Positions 58,364 through 63,582 of a DNA stretch of 64,000 nt are shown piece after piece (within the stretch, counting starts at the first letter, position 1; each line of letters opens with the position of its first letter). The stretch lies in sequence record OZ035772.1; one strand, given 5' to 3'. The notes under the pieces were generated by a model that saw nothing but the letters and a program-made list of their open reading frames with translations, made no database searches and had not been told where the DNA came from. Origin of the DNA: Felixounavirus LF82P3. Both the position numbers and the translations under genes were made by a program.

Positions 58364-58440
58364 CTCTGTTTAGCTCAGCTTGGTAGAGCGTTCCGTTTGG
58401 GGCGGTAAGGCCGGAGGTTCAAGTCCTCCAACAGAGACCA
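58364..58440 (+). tRNA. tRNA-Pro (anticodon TGG)
   Basis: Hand-folded cloverleaf: 7-bp acceptor CTCTGTT/AACAGAG, T-arm GGAGG-TTCAAGT-CCTCC, encoded CCA. Confidence 0.75.
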
Positions 58441-58447
58441 AATTAAT

Positions 58448-58525
58448 GTTCCAGTAGACAAAATGGTAAAGTCACCACTCTTTCAAAGTGGATATCTGAG
58501 GGTTCAAATCCCTTCTGGAACGCCA
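58448..58525 (+). tRNA. tRNA-Glu (anticodon TTC)
   Basis: Acceptor GTTCCAG/CTGGAAC, anticodon arm CCACT-CTTTCAA-AGTGG, T-loop TTCAAAT, CCA. Confidence 0.7.
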
Positions 58526-58532
58526 GTTTTGA

Positions 58533-58606
58533 CAGAAGACCAATTACAGCAAACTTAATCTTATTCATCTGAAGGTAAATCGGACAAAGAAGAGATTTGG
58601 TCTGGT
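58533..58606 (+). ncRNA. Hairpin-bracketed element E1 (candidate structured small RNA)
   Basis: 5' CAGAAGACC...TACAGCAAA and 3' ...GGTCTGG form closing stem; family of 4. Confidence 0.35.
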
Positions 58607-58616
58607 CATTAAGAAT

Positions 58617-58693
58617 TGCGGGTATAGAGAAAGGGCGTCTCACATGTCTCATTAGCATGGTATCGGCAGGTTCGACTCCTGCACCCGCCTCCA
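58617..58693 (+). tRNA. tRNA-Met (anticodon CAT; elongator vs initiator vs Ile-lysidine unresolved)
   Basis: Anticodon arm CATGT-CTCATTA-GCATG, T-arm GCAGG-TTCGACT-CCTGC, CCA; position 1-72 mismatched. Confidence 0.65.
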
Positions 58694-58698
58694 AATTT

Positions 58699-58768
58699 AC
58701 AGAAGACCGTTTACAGCAAAATTGAATGAAATTTTTAGCGGAAAAAATTGAAAGATACGGTCTGGTAA
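58699..58768 (+). ncRNA. Hairpin-bracketed element E2
   Basis: ACAGAAGACCGTTTACAGCAAA ... ACGGTCTGGTAAT. Confidence 0.35.
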
Positions 58769-58778
58769 TACTAAACAT

Positions 58779-58855
58779 GGTTAGGAAGCACATAAGGTAT
58801 GTGCGGTCGCCTGTTAAGCGAATGGCACAGGGTTCGAATCCCTGACTAACCGCCA
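58779..58855 (+). tRNA. tRNA-Asn (anticodon GTT)
   Basis: D-arm GCAC/GTGC, anticodon loop CTGTTAA, T-arm CAGGG-TTCGAAT-CCCTG, CCA. Confidence 0.75.
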
Positions 58856-58924
58856 AATTTAGGAGAGAAGCGATTGCTCACCGATTTGTAAGGTGCAAGT
58901 CCTTAGCCTGAATAGAAATTAAAT

Positions 58925-59012
58925 GTGTCGTTATCCCGTAGATGGTAGCGGTGGGGACTGTAAATCCCTTGTCATTGAGACTCGGTAGGTTCGACTCCTA
59001 CACGGCACACCA
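58925..59012 (+). tRNA. tRNA-Tyr (anticodon GTA), long variable arm
   Basis: Acceptor GTGTCGT/ACGGCAC, anticodon arm GGGGA-CTGTAAA-TCCCT, ~15-nt variable arm, A73, CCA. Confidence 0.75.
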
Positions 59013-59017
59013 ATAAA

Positions 59018-59095
59018 GGTTATGTAGTTTAATTTGGTTAAAATACTCCCCTGTCACGGGAGATGATGAGGGTTCAAATCCCTTCGTAACCGCCA
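59018..59095 (+). tRNA. tRNA-Asp (anticodon GTC)
   Basis: Anticodon arm CTCCC-CTGTCAC-GGGAG, T-arm GAGGG-TTCAAAT-CCCTT, CCA. Confidence 0.75.
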
Positions 59096-59155
59096 ATTTT
59101 GAGAGGGCTATTTAGCCCCTCCCTTAAAGGGTTCTTACGAGTATCCTTTAAAGGA

Positions 59156-59232
59156 GCAGAAGACCAAATACAGCAAGAACGTATGAAATTTCAAGCCAAT
59201 TTAATTTTGAAAATTTAAAACTTGGTCTGGCT
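59156..59232 (+). ncRNA. Hairpin-bracketed element E3
   Basis: GCAGAAGACCAAATACAGCAAGAAC ... CTTGGTCTGGCTC. Confidence 0.35.
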
Positions 59233-59242
59233 CAACAAATTT

Positions 59243-61424: not shown

Positions 61425-61667
61425 ATGCAAACATTAATCGTCGTTGAACATGAAAATCCCAATAGTATTGAGTTTGTAAGGGTTCCCACTATAGATACCC
61501 ACATTTTCTTGAAAGTCGGATGGGAATGCGACCCAATAAAAGTAGAAAGATTTATTGGTCATTGCTTTGGTGGAAGACAACTTAAAAGCGTCAATTTTGA
61601 GACAATGTTACCAGAAAGCTCAGAAACAAATAATAATGCTTACCTCCTTACGAGGGTTAGACAATGA
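61425..61667 (+). CDS. Hypothetical protein embedded in tRNA cluster
   Basis: ORF immediately after tRNA-Arg. Confidence 0.3.
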   Translation: MQTLIVVEHENPNSIEFVRVPTIDTHIFLKVGWECDPIKVERFIGHCFGGRQLKSVNFETMLPESSETNNNAYLLTRVRQ

Positions 61668-62221
61668 GATACTTAAAATATGTTTCATGGATTTTCTTAG
61701 CTTTGTTAGAACCATTTGCAGCAACCATAGCAGTCATCTTAGCACCTTTCGTAGTTCCATTCTACAGTGAGAAGAAAGGACATCTACCTTTTGGATTCAG
61801 ATGGATGGAGACCTATGACAACCCGATTGATGGTGATGAAGGCCACGTTAAAAGATGGGCTAATATTAGATGGATTGGTAAACTAGGTGTCTACATGCAA
61901 AGAGTTGGATGGCTCTGGAGAAACAAAGCTTATAACTTCTCTTACCATGTATTAGGAAGAGATGTAAAAGATGTTACTAAGTGGAAAGGTAATATCAACG
62001 TAAGTTCTAACCCTGAAGATAATCAGACTGGTTATCTCCTAATGTGGAACAGTAATGCTTGGGGATTATTCGCTTTTATCCCATCAATTAAAATCTTTGG
62101 TAAACAATTTTACTGGAGAATTTATATTGGATGGAAACTAAAAAGTGTTGTCCCAGAAGAAAGAGCATTCTCAAGGGAAAGAGTTATGTTGGCATTCTTT
62201 ATTCATCCACTGAGAAAGTAA
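61664..62221 (+). CDS. Hypothetical membrane protein embedded in tRNA cluster
   Basis: N-terminal hydrophobic IFLALLEPFAATIAVILAPFVVPF; Trp-rich. Confidence 0.35.
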   Translation: MRYLKYVSWIFLALLEPFAATIAVILAPFVVPFYSEKKGHLPFGFRWMETYDNPIDGDEGHVKRWANIRWIGKLGVYMQRVGWLWRNKAYNFSYHVLGRDVKDVTKWKGNINVSSNPEDNQTGYLLMWNSNAWGLFAFIPSIKIFGKQFYWRIYIGWKLKSVVPEERAFSRERVMLAFFIHPLRK

Positions 62222-62229
62222 AGATTTAA

Positions 62230-62305
62230 AGGGGATTAGTTTACAAGGTTAAAACCTCGGTCTTTGAAATCGAAGAAGTTGGTTCAATTCCAACATCCCC
62301 CGCCA
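62230..62305 (+). tRNA. tRNA-Gln (anticodon TTG)
   Basis: D-arm GTTT/AAAC, anticodon arm TCGGT-CTTTGAA-ATCGA, T-arm GTTGG-TTCAATT-CCAAC, G73, CCA. Confidence 0.7.
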
Positions 62306-62307
62306 AT

Positions 62308-62386
62308 GCTCCATTACTCCAATTGGCAGAGAGGCCAGACTTAAAATCTGTGTTATGTATCGGTTCGAATCCGATATGGAGTACCA
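62308..62386 (+). tRNA. tRNA with Leu anticodon TAA but short (class I) variable arm
   Basis: Acceptor GCTCCAT/ATGGAGT, anticodon loop CTTAAAA, T-arm ATCGG-TTCGAAT-CCGAT, A73, CCA. Confidence 0.6.
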
Positions 62387-62391
62387 AATTT

Positions 62392-62467
62392 AGCGGCATA
62401 GCATAACTGGCAATGCAGCAGTCTCTGAAGCTGTCTTATTAAGGTTCAAATCCTTATGCCGCTGCCA
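62392..62467 (+). tRNA. tRNA-Gln (anticodon CTG)
   Basis: Acceptor AGCGGCA/TGCCGCT, D-arm GCAT/ATGC, anticodon loop CTCTGAA, G73, CCA. Confidence 0.7.
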
Positions 62468-62498
62468 CTTCTAAGGATTCTTACGAGAGTCCTTAAAT

Positions 62499-62574
62499 GT
62501 GGCCTTATCATAAACGGTAATGACCCATGCTGTGAACATGGTCTATACGGGTTCAAATCCCGTAGGTCACCCCA
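62499..62574 (+). tRNA. tRNA-His (anticodon GTG)
   Basis: Acceptor GTGGCCT/AGGTCAC, anticodon arm CCATG-CTGTGAA-CATGG, C73, CCA. Confidence 0.8.
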
Positions 62575-62579
62575 ATTTA

Positions 62580-62656
62580 TAGTCCAAGTAGCTTATATGG
62601 TTAAAGCGCGTGTCTGAAAAACATGAGAAGAGGGTTCAAATCCCACTGGACTACCA
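62580..62656 (+). tRNA. tRNA-Phe (anticodon GAA)
   Basis: Anticodon arm CGTGT-CTGAAAA-ACATG, T-loop TTCAAAT, CCA; acceptor register ambiguous by 1 nt. Confidence 0.6.
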
Positions 62657-62672
62657 ATTTCAAAGGTGCTTA

Positions 62673-63407
62673 ATGAAAGAGATGACAGAACAAGGTAAGG
62701 AGATTTTCAATCTCTTAAAAACCGGTAAAGGGTTTTCTAACCCCCTTATTACTGGTGCAGCAGTTCTCGGTGGAACCGTAGCTGCCTCTACATCACTTGT
62801 AAGCTCTATTAGCTCTGTATCAGACCCTACAGTAAAGGATAAGCTTGTTGCTGCTGGACTTACAACAGTTCTGCTTAACAGCTTTACCACGAGTCTGACA
62901 AGCACTACATCAACTACCAAAACACTAACAGATTACGGTCAAAAGTCCATTGATGAGTTTTCATCACGTATGCAGGTAGCAAAAGGTTACTCTAATGTTA
63001 TGGGTGCAGCAGGTGAACAAGTTGGCTGTACACCATTTAGTGGTATTATGGGTGTTGCTACAGAGTATGGTCAAAAAGCTATTGATACGATTAACAGTGC
63101 ACTAGATAGTGTTAATGGTGTGTTAAGTGACTTACAAGATGCTATTGACAAAGGTCTTGATACTATTTCTGATTTAGCTGAGCAAGCTGTTAGTAAGATT
63201 AATGAAGGTATTTCAAAAATTACAGCTTATGCAGATGAAGTTGTGCAGATGATTGAAGAAGAAGCTGCTCTTATTGCAGAGTACCTTAAAACGAATATCA
63301 ATGGGTTCTTAGCAGGTATCTTACCAGACTGGTTTGATGATGCTTGTAAAACTGGTGTAATTGACACTATTGCAACACCAGAAATGAAGAACGCATTACA
63401 GAAATAA
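62673..63407 (+). CDS. Hypothetical protein (start moved from track GTG 62610, which lies inside tRNA-Phe, to ATG 62673)
   Basis: In-frame ATG after AAAGG; Ser/Thr/Ala-rich low-complexity N-region. Confidence 0.4.
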   Translation: MKEMTEQGKEIFNLLKTGKGFSNPLITGAAVLGGTVAASTSLVSSISSVSDPTVKDKLVAAGLTTVLLNSFTTSLTSTTSTTKTLTDYGQKSIDEFSSRMQVAKGYSNVMGAAGEQVGCTPFSGIMGVATEYGQKAIDTINSALDSVNGVLSDLQDAIDKGLDTISDLAEQAVSKINEGISKITAYADEVVQMIEEEAALIAEYLKTNINGFLAGILPDWFDDACKTGVIDTIATPEMKNALQK

Positions 63408-63409
63408 AT

Positions 63410-63502
63410 GGAAGATTAACCCTAAAAGGTAAGGGAGCAGTTTGCTAAACTGCCAGTAGCTGAGAAATCGGTGTACCAGTTCAAGTCTGGTATCTTCCTC
63501 CA
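63410..63502 (+). tRNA. tRNA-Ser (anticodon GCT), long variable arm
   Basis: Perfect acceptor GGAAGAT/ATCTTCC, anticodon arm GCAGT-TTGCTAA-ACTGC, ~21-nt variable region, T-arm ACCAG-TTCAAGT-CTGGT, CCA. Confidence 0.6.
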
Positions 63503-63506
63503 ATTT

Positions 63507-63582
63507 GAATCCGTGACAGAAATGGCTATGTGCCTGTCTGCAAAACAGGTTTATAAGGGTTCGAGTCCCTTCGGATTCTCCA
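63507..63582 (+). tRNA. tRNA-Cys (anticodon GCA)
   Basis: Acceptor GAATCCG/CGGATTC, anticodon arm CCTGT-CTGCAAA-ACAGG, U73, CCA. Confidence 0.8.

What the first reader, a model, noticed from the sequence alone, without database searches (positions are those of the whole stretch)
58364..63582. Large tRNA cluster with three Leu-anticodon tRNAs of class I architecture and an atypical Trp-like tRNA
About 27 tRNA genes with encoded CCA were folded by hand. tRNA-Tyr and both tRNA-Ser have the expected long variable arm, but the three tRNAs with Leu anticodons (TAG, CAA, TAA) have 5-7 nt variable regions while keeping discriminator A73. The CCA-anticodon element at 60228 has a perfect acceptor and T-arm but an enlarged D-region. 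Non-canonical phage tRNAs may be adapted to escape host anticodon nucleases or tRNA-targeting defence.
Basis: partly seen in the sequence, partly recalled or inferred. Interest (0 to 1): 0.55.

Follow-up and report, generated by a model that had tools for sequence, protein, structure and literature searches.

The report
Felix O1-type phage tRNA cluster, odd Leu/Trp
This is the well-known tRNA gene cluster of a Felix O1-like coliphage. Its three leucine tRNAs really do lack the long extra arm that bacterial leucine tRNAs normally carry, and an unannotated, oddly built tryptophan tRNA completes a full 20-amino-acid set.

Summary
The window is a Felixounavirus genome (99.4% identical to LF82P3). 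ARAGORN tRNAs at 58364-63582, covering 19 amino acids.

**Leucine tRNAs.** All three (UAG, CAA, UAA; 78-79 nt) have 4-7 nt variable regions and A73. Tyr and both Ser keep long arms. The Leu tRNAs keep the E. coli-type leucine D-loop (A14, A15, G18G19, A20a) and U48. The short-arm cloverleaf is backed by compensatory changes.

This architecture is not special to this phage. It occurs in Mooglevirus, Arno162, and Aeromonas, Rhodococcus, Myxococcus and Vibrio phages. It made up about a quarter of a sampled set of viral tRNA-Leu genes. It also occurs in many bacterial genomes, mainly Actinomycetota. Type I tRNALeu was described in Streptomyces coelicolor in 2019, where E. coli LeuRS failed to charge it, so charging here is likely but unproven.

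**Trp-like element (60228-60310).** It is missed by ARAGORN and Rfam and was unannotated in every record checked. It has four covarying helices, a CUCCAAA-type loop, A1-U72, G73 and CCA. It probably has an 8/4 acceptor/T arrangement, and it carries an invariant 9-11 nt insert before the D stem. It sits in the slot where phage VpaE1_ev78 has a callable tRNA-Trp.

Defence evasion remains untested.

**Side finding.** A Ro60-like gene and four Y-RNA-like elements accompany the cluster.

The parts
58364..63582 (+). Felixounavirus tRNA gene cluster: 26 ARAGORN-called tRNAs for 19 amino acids, plus the Trp-like gene. Small ORFs and non-tRNA structured RNAs are interspersed.
   Evidence: ARAGORN; Rfam tRNA; 94-99% identity to more than 200 Felixounavirus records; GenBank annotations of relatives.
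60669..60746 (+). tRNA-Leu(UAG), type I: 78 nt, variable region 4-5 nt, A73, G1.U72.
   Evidence: ARAGORN fold. On 5 distinct Ounavirinae homologues the cloverleaf is 97% paired with 6 pairs showing compensatory change, and slid controls show 0-1 such pairs. Rfam tRNA 44.5 bits.
61248..61325 (+). tRNA-Leu(CAA), type I: 78 nt, variable region 5-6 nt ending in U48, A73, D loop C-A14-A15-U-U-G18-G19-C-A20a-G-A.
   Evidence: ARAGORN fold; D-arm comparison with E. coli leuX, leuZ and leuW; Rfam tRNA 43.6 bits.
62308..62386 (+). tRNA-Leu(UAA), type I: 79 nt, variable region 7 nt ending in U48, A73, G1.U72, same D loop as Leu(CAA).
   Evidence: ARAGORN fold; at least 99% identical in 215 phage records; Rfam tRNA 47.5 bits.
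60228..60310 (+). Atypical tRNA-Trp(CCA)-like gene, 83 nt. Acceptor ATGGGAC(G)/(C)GTCCCAT; 9-nt insert ATGTTAAGA; D arm CTC-TAAGGCAT-GAG; anticodon stem AACGG/CCGTT with loop C-UUCCAAC-A; variable region TCAAA; T stem GGGG/CCTC; G73; CCA.
   Evidence: RNAalifold and pair counts on 8 distinct homologues: 99.4% paired, 8 of 20 pairs with compensatory change, 0 in slid controls. Present in at least 230 records. Same genomic slot as an ARAGORN-called tRNA-Trp in VpaE1_ev78. Not called by ARAGORN or Rfam.
58925..59012 (+). tRNA-Tyr(GUA) with a long variable arm (class II), an internal contrast to the Leu tRNAs.
   Evidence: ARAGORN fold.
60324..60413 (+). tRNA-Ser(UGA) with a long variable arm; the only tRNA here without an encoded CCA.
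   Evidence: ARAGORN fold; 3' ends.
63410..63502 (+). tRNA-Ser(GCU) with a long variable arm.
   Evidence: ARAGORN fold.
58217..58337 (+). Two sigma-70-like promoters (TTGACA-17-TAATAT and TTGACA-18-TAAAGT) just upstream of the first tRNA.
   Evidence: Consensus scan, 10 of 12 matches each. Function is inferred, and the region's total count of such sites is not above shuffles.
59775..59803 (+). Sigma-70-like promoter TTGACA-17-TATAGT inside the cluster.
   Evidence: Consensus scan, 11 of 12 matches. Function is inferred.
56783..58198 (+). Ro60/Rsr-like protein gene (DUF2828 + DUF7788/vWA, 471 aa) immediately upstream of the cluster.
   Evidence: Pfam; PHROG 850 'RNA-binding protein'; AlphaFold2 model with pLDDT 89; the top 9 Foldseek PDB hits are all Ro60/TROVE proteins, E 1e-8 to 3e-6, query TM 0.52-0.64.
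58530..58608 (+). Y-RNA-like element E1: outer stem, AGA/G internal loop, inner stem AGACCAA/TTGGTCT, UUACAGCAA motif, variable insert.
   Evidence: Motif search; fold; closing-helix covariation.
58697..58768 (+). Y-RNA-like element E2.
59154..59233 (+). Y-RNA-like element E3.
59241..59378 (+). Y-RNA-like element E4. The same closing helix encloses a permuted tRNA-like module: T arm, a loop-closed 7-bp acceptor-like hairpin and a D arm. This is a YrlA-like design.
   Evidence: Fold; weak partial Rfam tRNA hit at 59267-59317; RNAalifold on 6 homologues from 3 phage lineages, 13 of 22 pairs with compensatory change.

Best explanation
The region is the tRNA gene cluster typical of Felix O1-like myoviruses (Ounavirinae). 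Promoter-like sites suggest transcription by host RNA polymerase, with the tRNAs then cut out by host tRNA-processing enzymes; both steps are inferred. The cluster supplies the infected cell with a phage-made decoder for every amino acid.

The three leucine tRNAs are genuine type I tRNALeu. They have a leucine-type D arm and hinge (3-bp D stem, A14, A15 with U48, G18G19 in the E. coli register, A20a) and A73, but only 4-7 nt where bacterial tRNALeu carries a stem-loop arm. The most likely mechanism is ordinary leucylation by the host LeuRS. Published work reports that E. coli LeuRS reads exactly these elements and not the long arm. The arm has therefore been lost in the one class II family where it is dispensable, and kept in Ser and Tyr.

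The element at 60228-60310 is most likely the phage's tRNATrp. It carries the E. coli tryptophan identity set (CCA anticodon, G73, A1-U72, G5-C68) on a covariation-supported cloverleaf. Its acceptor and T helices probably stack as 8+4 bp instead of 7+5, and it carries an extra conserved 9-11 nt strand before the D stem.

Shown here: the sequences, the folds, their conservation and covariation, and the positional equivalence. Inferred: expression, processing, charging and use on the ribosome.
For: - **Identity of the locus.** 99.4% identical to Felixounavirus LF82P3, with 231 records covering at least 80% of the query. The cluster is published for Felix O1 and Sf14 (PMC3185647; PMC12482277).
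- **Type I architecture.** ARAGORN folds and lengths of 75-76 nt without CCA. On Leu(UAG), 6 pairs show compensatory change, 97% of cells are paired, and the anticodon and T stems are only 4-5 nt apart.
- **Leucine identity elements.** The D-loop register is identical to E. coli leuZ, leuX and leuW, with A73 and U48 present. The review PMC9976931 lists A73, A15-U48, G18G19 and A20a as the E. coli determinants. It says neither the anticodon nor the long arm is crucial, and that variants missing both stay active. The Sf14 paper's isotype-score table puts Leu top for all three orthologues.
- **Constraint.** Leu(UAA) is at least 99% identical in 215 records.
- **Generality.** Short Leu tRNAs also occur in Mooglevirus and Arno162, in Aeromonas, Rhodococcus and Myxococcus phages, and in Vibrio phage phi-pp2. 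A scan with a short-arm-specific pattern gave 127 short Leu in 80 IMG/VR loci, while 78 of 79 Ser genes there stay long. A pattern blind to the arm gave 25 short against 75 long.
- **Trp-like element.** It is the only missing amino acid. Four helices are 99.4% paired with 8 compensatory pairs, and slid controls give none. U33, C34, C35, A36 and A37 are invariant. G73, the anticodon and the first pair are the stated major Trp determinants, with G73 and A1-U72 being the E. coli features. In VpaE1_ev78 the same flank is followed by an ARAGORN-called 71-nt tRNA-Trp with A1-U72, G73 and loop CUCCAAA.
- **Precedent.** 8/4 tRNAs are already known in phages (PMC5389517).
Against: - No expression, processing or charging data exist for any of these genes in the material I could reach.
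- PMC6614811 reports that E. coli LeuRS did not leucylate the type I tRNALeu(CAA) of S. coelicolor and describes EcLeuRS as charging only type II. Dispensability of the arm in engineered E. coli tRNALeu therefore does not guarantee charging of these natural short forms.
- Apart from the D arm and A73, the three Leu tRNAs are no closer to E. coli tRNALeu bodies (54-62% identity) than to other tRNAs of the same cluster (65-73%).
- The D stem of Leu(UAG) is ambiguous: either 3 bp shifted by two positions or a C11.C24 mismatch.
- For the Trp-like element, no tRNA finder accepts it. The G8-C pair that defines the 8/4 reading never varies, so covariation cannot separate 8/4 from 7/5 with an A49.C65 mismatch.
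- The anticodon loop is 9 nt unless a C31.A39 mismatch is accepted. I know of no precedent for the 9-11 nt insert in an elongator tRNA.
- The Arno162 copy has a bulge in the acceptor stem.
Confidence: 0.7

Rival explanations
1. Defence evasion. Loss of the long arm in tRNALeu and the odd build of tRNATrp were selected because host tRNA-cleaving or tRNA-modifying defence or toxin systems recognise the canonical shapes. The phage versions would stay intact and keep translation running after host tRNAs are destroyed.
For: - Phage tRNAs are documented as counter-defence. The search results list tRNA-mediated evasion of retron and other defence systems (PMC11555353), PARIS (PMC11464382) and anticodon-loop escape mutations (PMC10264068).
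- At least one defence, Septu, is reported to cut the variable loop of tRNATyr (abstract of PMC13096335).
- Many tRNAs of the related phage Sf14 differ from the host at loop positions 32 and 38.
- The Trp-like loop in this window is a U32/C38 variant of the majority C32/A38 form.
- A full 20-amino-acid tRNA set is what one would want if host tRNAs were being lost wholesale.
Against: - No nuclease that needs the tRNALeu long arm was found in the literature I searched.
- The tRNA whose variable loop is known to be attacked (Tyr) keeps its long arm here.
- Short-arm tRNALeu also occurs as solitary chromosomal genes in many Actinomycetota and in bacterial tRNA arrays, where escape from anti-phage defence is not an obvious driver.
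- The pattern 'Leu loses the arm, Ser and Tyr keep it' is predicted by synthetase requirements alone.
Confidence: 0.15
2. The Trp-like element, and possibly other odd members, is not a translating tRNA. It would be a tRNA mimic: a decoy or sponge, or a partner of the adjacent Ro60-like protein, like the tRNA-like module of element E4 and the 'tRNA-like stable RNAs' annotated in phage T5.
For: - tRNA finders reject it.
- Its invariant 9-11 nt single strand looks like a protein- or RNA-binding site.
- The same cluster holds proven non-tRNA, tRNA-like structures next to a Ro60-like gene.
- The T5 record annotates several tRNA-like stable RNAs of unknown function in its tRNA region.
Against: - Unlike E4, it has an open, perfectly paired acceptor stem with G73 and an encoded CCA, and an invariant U33-CCA-A37 loop.
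- It has the Trp identity set.
- It fills the only gap in the amino-acid set.
- It alternates with a callable tRNA-Trp at the same site in a sister phage.
Confidence: 0.12
3. The short Leu tRNAs and the Trp-like element are decaying pseudogenes of no function.
For: tRNAscan-SE flagged some Felix O1 tRNAs as 'pseudo' (Tyr and one other). The Trp-like element fails all tRNA models.
Against: - Sequences are near-identical across hundreds of isolates.
- Compensatory substitutions occur in all variable helices.
- The short Leu architecture recurs in unrelated phage lineages and in bacteria.
- The Leu genes score normally with Rfam and Cove.
Confidence: 0.03

Closest known systems
tRNA gene cluster of Salmonella phage Felix O1 and relatives (Whichard et al. 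2010, PMC3185647; Shigella phage Sf14, PMC12482277)
   Same: Same genes in the same order. The window is 94-99% identical to more than 200 Felixounavirus records. Leu(TAG), Leu(CAA) and Leu(TAA) are annotated as tRNA-Leu in GenBank. Sf14 is described as having 26 tRNAs for 19 amino acids.
   Different: Nothing differs in the DNA. What is added is the reading. The Sf14 paper never uses the word 'variable', the Felix O1 passages I read do not mention the missing long arm, and the Trp-like gene is unannotated in every record inspected.
Type I tRNALeu: animal mitochondrial tRNALeu and Streptomyces coelicolor tRNALeu(CAA) (PMC6614811)
   Same: Leu anticodon with a short variable region instead of a stem-loop arm. 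It co-exists in one cell with type II tRNALeu and a single LeuRS, as would happen in an infected E. coli.
   Different: The S. coelicolor tRNA relies on C74 rather than A73 and was not charged by E. coli LeuRS. The phage tRNAs keep A73 and the E. coli-type D loop. Whether enterobacterial LeuRS charges them is untested.
8/4 and 9/3 'novel cloverleaf' tRNAs (Mukai et al. 2017, PMC5389517)
   Same: A 12-bp acceptor/T coaxial stack split 8+4 instead of 7+5, reported in bacteria and their phages.
   Different: That paper names Ser, His, Cys, Sec and allo-tRNAs; a search of it found no mention of Trp. The 9-11 nt strand between acceptor and D stem and the 9-nt (or C.A-closed) anticodon loop are not features I know from that work; the paper was not searched for them. 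The 8th acceptor pair here is invariant, so the 8/4 assignment rests on pairing, not covariation.
Phage T5 tRNA region (NC_005859)
   Same: A large tRNA set with interspersed small ORFs, HNH endonucleases, 'tRNA-like stable RNAs of unknown function' and a compact 71-nt tRNATrp.
   Different: T5 tRNALeu(UAG) is a normal 85-nt class II tRNA. There is no sequence relationship to the 83-nt Trp-like element.
Ro60/Rsr with Y RNAs of the YrlA type (Chen et al. 2014, PMC4201824; Thermus phage phiLo Ro60, PMC12135203). This applies to the accompanying elements, not to the Leu and Trp tRNAs.
   Same: A ring-plus-vWA protein gene adjacent to several about 70-140 nt RNAs closed by a long stem with an internal loop. 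At least one carries a tRNA-like module (T arm, D arm, loop-closed acceptor).
   Different: The protein is the DUF2828 family, not Pfam TROVE. By sequence it matches Ro60 only at E about 0.6; the match is by fold. The conserved RNA motif is (U/A)UACAGCAA after an AGR...YCU-G stem, not GNCGAAN0-1G. The RNAs lie inside a tRNA cluster. Binding is untested.

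Membership tests
Felixounavirus / Ounavirinae tRNA cluster | Nucleotide identity and gene order shared with Felix O1-like genomes | tested here: met
   99.4% identical to OZ035779.1; 231 records cover at least 80% of the 5.3-kb query. The same tRNA order is seen in KhF1, VpaE1, MBP4696116, Maleficent and Sf17.
Bacterial class II (type II) tRNALeu | Long variable arm (stem-loop, more than 10 nt) between the anticodon and T stems | tested here: not met
   The variable region is 4-7 nt in all three. E. coli leuZ, leuX and leuW are 85-87 nt with 13-15 nt arms.
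Bacterial class II (type II) tRNALeu | E. coli leucine identity set: A73, A14, A15-U48, G18G19 register, A20a | tested here: met
   Direct comparison of sequences with the list in PMC9976931. Leu(UAG) has one extra D-loop nucleotide and an ambiguous D stem.
Type I tRNALeu (mitochondrial / S. coelicolor kind) | Leu anticodon on a cloverleaf with a short variable region, supported by comparative data | tested here: met
   (6 compensatory pairs, 97% paired).
Type I tRNALeu (mitochondrial / S. coelicolor kind) | Leucylated by the resident LeuRS | not testable with these tools
   This needs an aminoacylation assay. Published precedents conflict.
tRNATrp (bacterial) | Anticodon CCA in a U33...A37 loop, G73, first pair A1-U72 | tested here: met
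   Determinants are as listed in PMC9976931. Some homologues have G1.U72.
tRNATrp (bacterial) | Canonical cloverleaf geometry (7/5 stems, 2-nt connector, 7-nt anticodon loop) recognised by tRNA models | tested here: not met
   No ARAGORN call at 90% or higher thresholds. No Rfam RF00005 match at E<=10; the best match is tRNA-Sec at 16.9 bits. There is a 9-11 nt connector and a 9-nt loop or C31.A39 mismatch.
tRNATrp (bacterial) | Occupies the tRNA-Trp position of the cluster | tested here: met
   In VpaE1_ev78 the shared upstream flank is followed by an ARAGORN-called and GenBank-annotated 71-nt tRNA-Trp.
8/4 tRNAs (Mukai et al. 2017) | 8-bp acceptor stem plus 4-bp T stem | tested here: inconclusive
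   RNAalifold predicts 8+4. The 8th pair, G8-C, is invariant in all 8 sequences, so covariation says nothing. The alternative is 7/5 with an A.C mismatch.
Ro60/Rsr (TROVE + vWA) proteins, for the ORF at 56783-58198 | HEAT-repeat ring plus vWA domain with a MIDAS motif | tested here: met
   AlphaFold2 pLDDT 89. The top 9 PDB hits are all Ro60/TROVE over about 520-555 aligned columns, query TM 0.52-0.64. D279, S281 and S283 are invariant in 44 homologues. The Pfam TROVE family itself is not hit.
Y RNA / YrlA, for elements E1-E4 | Encoded next to the Ro60 gene; long closing stem with internal loop; tRNA-like module in at least one copy | tested here: met
   The same arrangement is seen next to DUF2828 genes that are 34-51% identical.
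Y RNA / YrlA, for elements E1-E4 | YrlA consensus motif GNCGAAN0-1G and a match to the Rfam family | tested here: not met
   The motif here is CAGAAG with UACAGCAA. No Rfam family matched E1-E3 at E<=1; within E4 the only match was a weak partial tRNA hit, and no Y-RNA family matched.
Y RNA / YrlA, for elements E1-E4 | Bound by the Ro60-like protein | not testable with these tools
   This needs co-immunoprecipitation or EMSA.

The most novel reading that the evidence does not exclude
The 'tRNA cluster' may really be a larger phage module for taking over host RNA handling. It would comprise a divergent Ro60-like protein (DUF2828 family), a new family of Y-like RNAs (AGR-stem, UACAGCAA, some with permuted tRNA-like modules) and a self-sufficient set of 20 decoders that includes non-standard architectures (type I tRNALeu, an 8/4-like tRNATrp with an extra strand). 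On this reading the DUF2828 protein binds the Y-like RNAs, and the association with tRNA clusters seen in phages of Escherichia and Vibrio and in environmental contigs is functional, for example quality control, protection or processing of phage tRNAs, or redirection of host exonucleases. Type I tRNALeu would be a general, previously unremarked feature of phage translation kits that enterobacterial LeuRS does charge, contrary to the published statement that E. coli LeuRS charges only type II.
Probability: 0.4. Interest if true: 0.75.

Novelty: new variant of a known kind. Interest (0 to 1): 0.55.

Why it matters
[quoted passage not shown] The one bacterial exception studied biochemically could not be charged by E. 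coli LeuRS.

Here three short-arm tRNALeu genes are conserved, with compensatory changes, in hundreds of phages that grow on E. coli, Salmonella, Shigella and Citrobacter. The same architecture made up about a quarter of a sampled set of viral tRNALeu genes.

That makes a clear-cut experiment possible. Either enterobacterial LeuRS does charge natural type I tRNALeu, which settles a conflict in the identity literature, or these phages handle leucine decoding in some other way.

The unannotated tRNATrp-like gene means Felix O1-type phages, several of which are used for typing and biocontrol, probably carry a decoder for all 20 amino acids rather than 19. It also shows that standard tRNA finders miss a functional-looking architecture.

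Practically, phage tRNA censuses and codon-usage or defence-evasion analyses that rely on tRNAscan-SE or ARAGORN output will miscount such genes. The adjacent Ro60-like gene and Y-like RNAs suggest the cluster is more than a set of tRNAs.

Tried and rejected
- **Relaxed ARAGORN on the Trp-like region.** At 70-80% thresholds it gave only implausible overlapping calls (Pyl, 4-base anticodons). One 'intron' model paired an upstream AAGGGGC with the 3' acceptor strand. I rejected it because it has an A.A mismatch and ignores the perfectly paired, conserved ATGGGAC strand.
- **My first D-stem guess (ATG/CAT).** I dropped it in favour of CTC/GAG, which covaries (UA to AU in 4 of 8 sequences).
- **Overall similarity of the phage Leu tRNAs to arm-deleted E. 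coli tRNALeu.** Identity was 54-62%, no better than to other cluster tRNAs. It therefore does not show descent from host tRNALeu; only the D arm and A73 are leucine-like.
- **The third IMG/VR pattern.** It was poorly designed, being biased towards host-like Leu(YAG) with a GRUU loop. It returned almost only long-arm genes, and I do not use it for the frequency estimate.
- **A first, loose regular expression for Y-like elements.** It gave mostly false positives. I replaced it with a strict definition and a shuffle control.
- **Sequence-only PDB searches with the Ro60-like protein.** The single sequence found nothing. The profile gave only E of about 0.6-0.8 to Ro60. The fold comparison was needed.
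- **The connector motif ATGTTAAGA.** It was not found in other tRNA-like contexts in any locus held.
- **Rfam.** It offers no family for E1-E3, for the Trp-like element or for the tmRNA-like stretch above its gathering scores. Within E4 the only match was a weak partial tRNA hit.
- **Literature searches for a prior description of short-arm tRNALeu in phages.** These found none in the library available. Subscription-only papers could not be searched.

Full report
**What the window is**

The 5.3 kb around the finding is 99.4% identical to Felixounavirus LF82P3. It is 94-97% identical to many Escherichia, Salmonella and Shigella phages of the Felix O1 group, and 231 records cover at least 80% of it. 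The tRNA cluster of this group is published. Felix O1 was reported with 22 tRNAs by tRNAscan-SE, including Leu(TAG) with a Cove score of 52 (PMC3185647). The related Mooglevirus Sf14 was reported with 26 tRNAs for 19 amino acids (PMC12482277, abstract).

**Checking the observation**

- ARAGORN tRNA genes on the + strand between 58364 and 63582. Rfam's tRNA model passes its gathering score on 24 of them.
- 25 of the 26 end in an encoded CCA. Ser(UGA) does not.
- The anticodons cover every amino acid except Trp.
- Tyr (88 nt) and both Ser tRNAs (90 and 93 nt) are folded with long variable arms.
- Leu(UAG) 60669-60746, Leu(CAA) 61248-61325 and Leu(UAA) 62308-62386 are 78-79 nt including CCA. They have 4-7 nt between the anticodon and T stems and have A73.

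**Are the short Leu tRNAs real, constrained tRNAs?**

- Leu(UAA) is at least 99% identical in 215 phage records.
- For Leu(UAG), five distinct Ounavirinae sequences differ wholesale in the anticodon stem (AUCUCG/CGAGAU, ACCAUC/GUUGGU, CGCUUC/GUAGCG) and at two acceptor pairs, yet keep pairing. 97% of cells are paired and 6 pairs show changes on both sides, against 0-1 when the partners are slid by 1-3 columns.
- The stems leave no room for an arm.

**Leucine identity**

E. coli leuZ, leuX and leuW have a 3-bp D stem and the loop N-A14-A15-U-Y-G18-G19-U-A20a-G-A. Phage Leu(CAA) and Leu(UAA) have the same stem length and the loop C-A-A-U-U-G-G-C-A-G-A. Their variable region ends in U48, and they have A73. 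Leu(UAG) has the same loop with one extra base and an ambiguous D stem.

The identity review lists exactly these elements (A73, A15-U48, G18G19, A20a and D/T-loop tertiary pairs) as the E. coli determinants. It states that neither the anticodon nor the long arm is crucial for E. coli leucine identity, and that variants missing both remain active. [quoted passage not shown] The Sf14 paper's tRNAscan-SE isotype table gives Leu the top score for all three orthologues.

There are two limits:
- Outside the D arm, the phage Leu tRNAs are no closer to E. coli tRNALeu than to their neighbours in the cluster.
- PMC6614811 found that E. coli LeuRS did not charge the natural type I tRNALeu(CAA) of S. coelicolor.

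Charging by the host enzyme is therefore the likeliest mechanism, but it is inferred.

**How unusual is the architecture?**

It is not unique to this phage.
- Short tRNALeu genes (74-79 nt) occur in Mooglevirus and Pectobacterium phage Arno162, Aeromonas phage AhP_Mru1 (Demerecviridae), Rhodococcus phage Trina (one of three Leu genes) and Myxococcus phage Mx1 (two). They also occur in Vibrio phage phi-pp2 (two) and in an environmental contig.
- T5 has a normal 85-nt tRNALeu.
ARAGORN then found 127 short Leu genes (UAG 46, CAA 41, UAA 28, others 12) in 80 of those loci. There, 78 of 79 Ser genes and most Tyr genes were long.
- A pattern that ignores the variable region (AATTGGCAGA-N9-CTYARA) returned 25 short and 75 long tRNALeu, plus 24 non-tRNA matches. 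That is about a quarter, with the caveats that the scan was truncated and is tied to one D-loop sequence.
It gave 122 short tRNALeu, mostly solitary Leu(UAA) genes in Actinomycetota (Nocardia, Mycobacterium, Gordonia, Arthrobacter and others) and members of tRNA arrays with up to 28 tRNAs in 8 kb.

On prior description:
- Four searches of the library for short-arm tRNALeu in phages found no paper on it.
- The only paper using the phrase 'type I tRNALeu' is the Streptomyces study.
- The Sf14 paper never mentions the variable arm.

**The Trp-like element (60228-60310)**

It is present, at 88-100% identity, in about 230 Felixounavirus and Mooglevirus records, and at 76% in Arno162. It is unannotated in all records inspected. 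Eight distinct homologues gave an RNAalifold consensus of four helices with 99.4% of cells paired. Eight of 20 pairs show compensatory change, and slid controls show none.

The structure is:
- **Acceptor helix:** ATGGGAC/GTCCCAT, which can extend by G8-C to 8 bp.
- **T stem:** 4 bp (GGGG/CCTC, changing to UGGG/CCUA in Sf13-like phages).
- **D stem:** 3 bp, CTC/GAG, changing to CAC/GTG in half the sequences, with loop UAAGGCAU.
- **Anticodon stem:** 5 bp (AACGG/CCGUU, GUAAG/CUUAC or GUAGG/CCUAC).
- **Anticodon loop:** 9 nt, C-YUCCAAM-A, or 7 nt closed by a C.A mismatch.
- **Variable region:** 5 nt.
- **3' end:** G73 and CCA.
- **Insert:** between the acceptor and D stems lies an invariant ATGTTAAGA (11 nt in Arno162) where tRNAs normally have two nucleotides.

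The 8/4 split has precedent in phage Ser and His tRNAs (PMC5389517). Here the eighth pair never varies, so the assignment is not proven. Rfam's general tRNA model does not match even at E<=10; the best match is tRNA-Sec at 16.9 bits.

Four things argue that it is nevertheless the phage's tRNATrp:
- Trp is the only amino acid otherwise missing.
- U33, C34, C35, A36 and A37 are invariant.
- It has G73 and A1-U72. The review names the discriminator, the anticodon and the first pair as major Trp determinants, with G73 and A1-U72 being the E. coli features; G5-C68, also present, is listed as a minor B. subtilis determinant.
- In Felixounavirus VpaE1_ev78 the same upstream flank is followed by an annotated, ARAGORN-called 71-nt tRNA-Trp with A1-U72, G73 and loop CUCCAAA. 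That gene sits in a cassette with an endonuclease VII-like gene.

In this window the loop carries U32 and C38 instead of the majority C32 and A38.

**Mechanism and rivals**

- **Best supported (about 0.7).** This is a working phage decoder set. The Leu tRNAs are charged by host LeuRS through A73 and the D/T hinge, the arm having been lost where the synthetase does not need it. The 83-nt RNA serves as tRNATrp.
- **Defence evasion as the driver (about 0.15).** It cannot be excluded. However, the known variable-loop-cutting systems target tRNATyr, which keeps its arm here. Short tRNALeu also exists in bacterial chromosomes.
- **A tRNA-mimic role for the Trp-like RNA (about 0.12).** This is suggested by its invariant extra strand and by its neighbours (see below).
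- **Pseudogene status.** This is effectively excluded by conservation and covariation.

**What else is in the region**

*The upstream ORF.* The ORF immediately upstream (56783-58198, 471 aa) is DUF2828 + DUF7788/vWA and PHROG 850 'RNA-binding protein'. An AlphaFold2 model built on 44 homologues has pLDDT 89. Its nine best PDB matches are all Ro60/TROVE proteins: Thermus phage phiLo Ro60 9KOP, Xenopus Ro60 2I91/1YVP/1YVR, human Ro60 and Deinococcus Rsr 2NVO. E-values run from 1e-8 to 3e-6 and query TM-scores from 0.52 to 0.64 over the full length. The MIDAS residues D279, S281 and S283 are invariant.

*The four RNA elements.* Between the tRNAs lie four elements: E1 58530-58608, E2 58697-58768, E3 59154-59233 and E4 59241-59378. 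They share a 4-bp outer stem, an AGA/G internal loop, a 7-bp inner stem AGACCNN/NNGGUCU and the motif (U/A)UACAGCAA. The closing helix covaries: 99.4% paired, with 5 pairs changed on both sides. E4 encloses a permuted tRNA-like module made of a T arm, a loop-closed 7-bp acceptor-like hairpin whose sequence is replaced wholesale in Maleficent and Sf17, and a D arm. This is the design of bacterial YrlA Y RNAs (PMC4201824).

*The same arrangement in distant phages.* In a contig whose DUF2828 protein is 51% identical, the gene is followed by five tandem elements of similar build, four carrying the UACAGCAA motif and three holding tRNA-like modules. A 14-tRNA cluster follows. RNAalifold across the lineages recovers all four helices, with 13 of 22 pairs compensated.

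*Statistical association.* The test set was 344 IMG/VR loci chosen only through tRNA-Leu patterns.
- A strict definition of the element found 19 copies, against 2 in shuffled sequence.
- Elements were present in 5 of 11 loci with a DUF2828 gene and in 12 of 333 without (Fisher p = 6e-5).
- In three loci the element ended about 170-390 nt upstream of the gene.

*Prior knowledge.* Ro60 homologues with Y-like RNAs are known in mycobacteriophages, CcrColossus, phage G and Thermus phage phiLo. They were suspected in a Listeria phage. I found nothing linking DUF2828 to them. Binding is untested.

*A tmRNA-like stretch.* A promoter at 59775-59803 is followed by a stretch that mimics the tag-coding part of tmRNA (59853-59888). 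It begins with the GCA AAC GAC that I recall opening the E. coli tag, and encodes ANDNVFLAVA followed by two stop codons. It is conserved in Felixounavirus and Mooglevirus, where the only two changes are synonymous. No tRNA-like domain was found by ARAGORN, and the Rfam hits are sub-threshold.

**Verdict**

The tRNA cluster itself is known. The short-arm tRNALeu is a real member of a kind already described in Streptomyces and mitochondria, but as far as I could find it has not been remarked on in phages. The Trp-like gene is an unannotated variant architecture. The defence-evasion interpretation is untested. Interest is moderate for the finding as given. It would be higher if the Ro60-like/Y-like RNA association is borne out.

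Noticed in passing
window 56783-58198 (+): The gene directly upstream of the tRNA cluster (DUF2828 + DUF7788/vWA, PHROG 850 'RNA-binding protein') is predicted with high confidence to have the Ro60/Rsr fold: a TROVE ring plus a vWA domain with an invariant MIDAS motif. The top 9 PDB fold matches are all Ro60 proteins. No paper in the library links DUF2828 to Ro60.
   Followed up: yes
window 58530-58608, 58697-58768, 59154-59233, 59241-59378 (+): Four paralogous structured RNAs lie between the tRNAs. They share a covarying closing helix (NNNN-AGA-AGACCNN ... NNGGUCU-G-NNNN) and the motif (U/A)UACAGCAA. The fourth encloses a permuted tRNA-like module like bacterial YrlA Y RNAs. They are probable partners of the Ro60-like protein. 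No Rfam family matched E1-E3; within E4 the only match was a weak partial tRNA hit.
   Followed up: yes
L505 7525-8117; L504; IMG/VR loci L052, L236, L255, L119, L072: Distant DUF2828 genes (34-51% identity) are also flanked by similar stem + UACAGCAA elements (some with tRNA-like modules), and in L504 and L505 they lie next to tRNA clusters. The element-gene association in 344 unselected loci has Fisher p = 6e-5. Family consensus: 5'-AGRNNNN-N-UACAGCAA ... NNNNYCU-G-3'.
   Followed up: partly
window 59853-59888 (+), transcript from the promoter at 59775-59803 up to tRNA-Arg at 60009: This stretch resembles the tag-coding part of tmRNA. It begins with the GCA AAC GAC that I recall opening the E. 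coli ssrA tag, and encodes ANDNVFLAVA followed by two stop codons. It is conserved in Felixounavirus and Mooglevirus, where the only two differences are synonymous, and is frameshifted in one record. ARAGORN finds no tRNA-like domain. Rfam tmRNA and permuted-tmRNA hits are below threshold (31.8 and 14.3 bits).
   Followed up: partly
window 59383-59520 and 61076-61171 (+): Two further intergenic stretches look like structured RNAs. The first is closed by a 15-16 bp stem (TATCTTTGTAGATAAG / CTTATCTACAAAGATA). The second is closed by AGAGGTC/GACCTCT and contains GAAGACCGTAACAAA, reminiscent of the E-element motif. The T5 record likewise annotates several 'stable RNAs of unknown function' among its tRNAs.
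   Followed up: no
L506 (Escherichia phage VpaE1_ev78) 254-1234: At the site of the atypical Trp-like gene, this sister phage carries a compact, callable 71-nt tRNA-Trp between an endonuclease VII-like ORF and another small ORF. This suggests cassette exchange of tRNA alleles by homing-type elements. T5's tRNATrp is also only 71 nt.
   Followed up: partly
genome loci L358-L477: Short-arm tRNA-Leu is frequent in bacterial genomes. 78 of the matches are Leu(UAA) genes, typically the only tRNA in their 8-kb locus; the listed records are largely Actinomycetota (Nocardia, Mycobacterium, Gordonia, Arthrobacter, Bifidobacterium). Others sit in dense tRNA arrays (up to 28 tRNAs per 8 kb) in cyanobacteria, Acidobacteriota and others. 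This contradicts the usual statement that bacterial tRNALeu is always class II.
   Followed up: partly
IMG/VR loci L014-L133: A few viral tRNA-Tyr genes are only 73-79 nt and one tRNA-Ser is 72 nt. This suggests that loss of the long arm may occasionally extend to other class II tRNAs in phages.
   Followed up: no
window 58617-58693 and 59606-59682 (+): The first CAU-anticodon tRNA has a mismatched 1-72 pair (T.C), fails Rfam's tRNA threshold and scored only 28.9 with Cove in Felix O1. It may be initiator-like or degenerate. The second CAU tRNA is annotated as tRNA-Ile(CAU) in phage KhF1, that is, a possible lysidine-dependent AUA decoder.
   Followed up: no
window 60324-60413 (+): tRNA-Ser(UGA) is the only tRNA of the cluster without an encoded CCA (it ends GCC followed by T). 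It also has the weakest Rfam tRNA score (33.2 bits).
   Followed up: no
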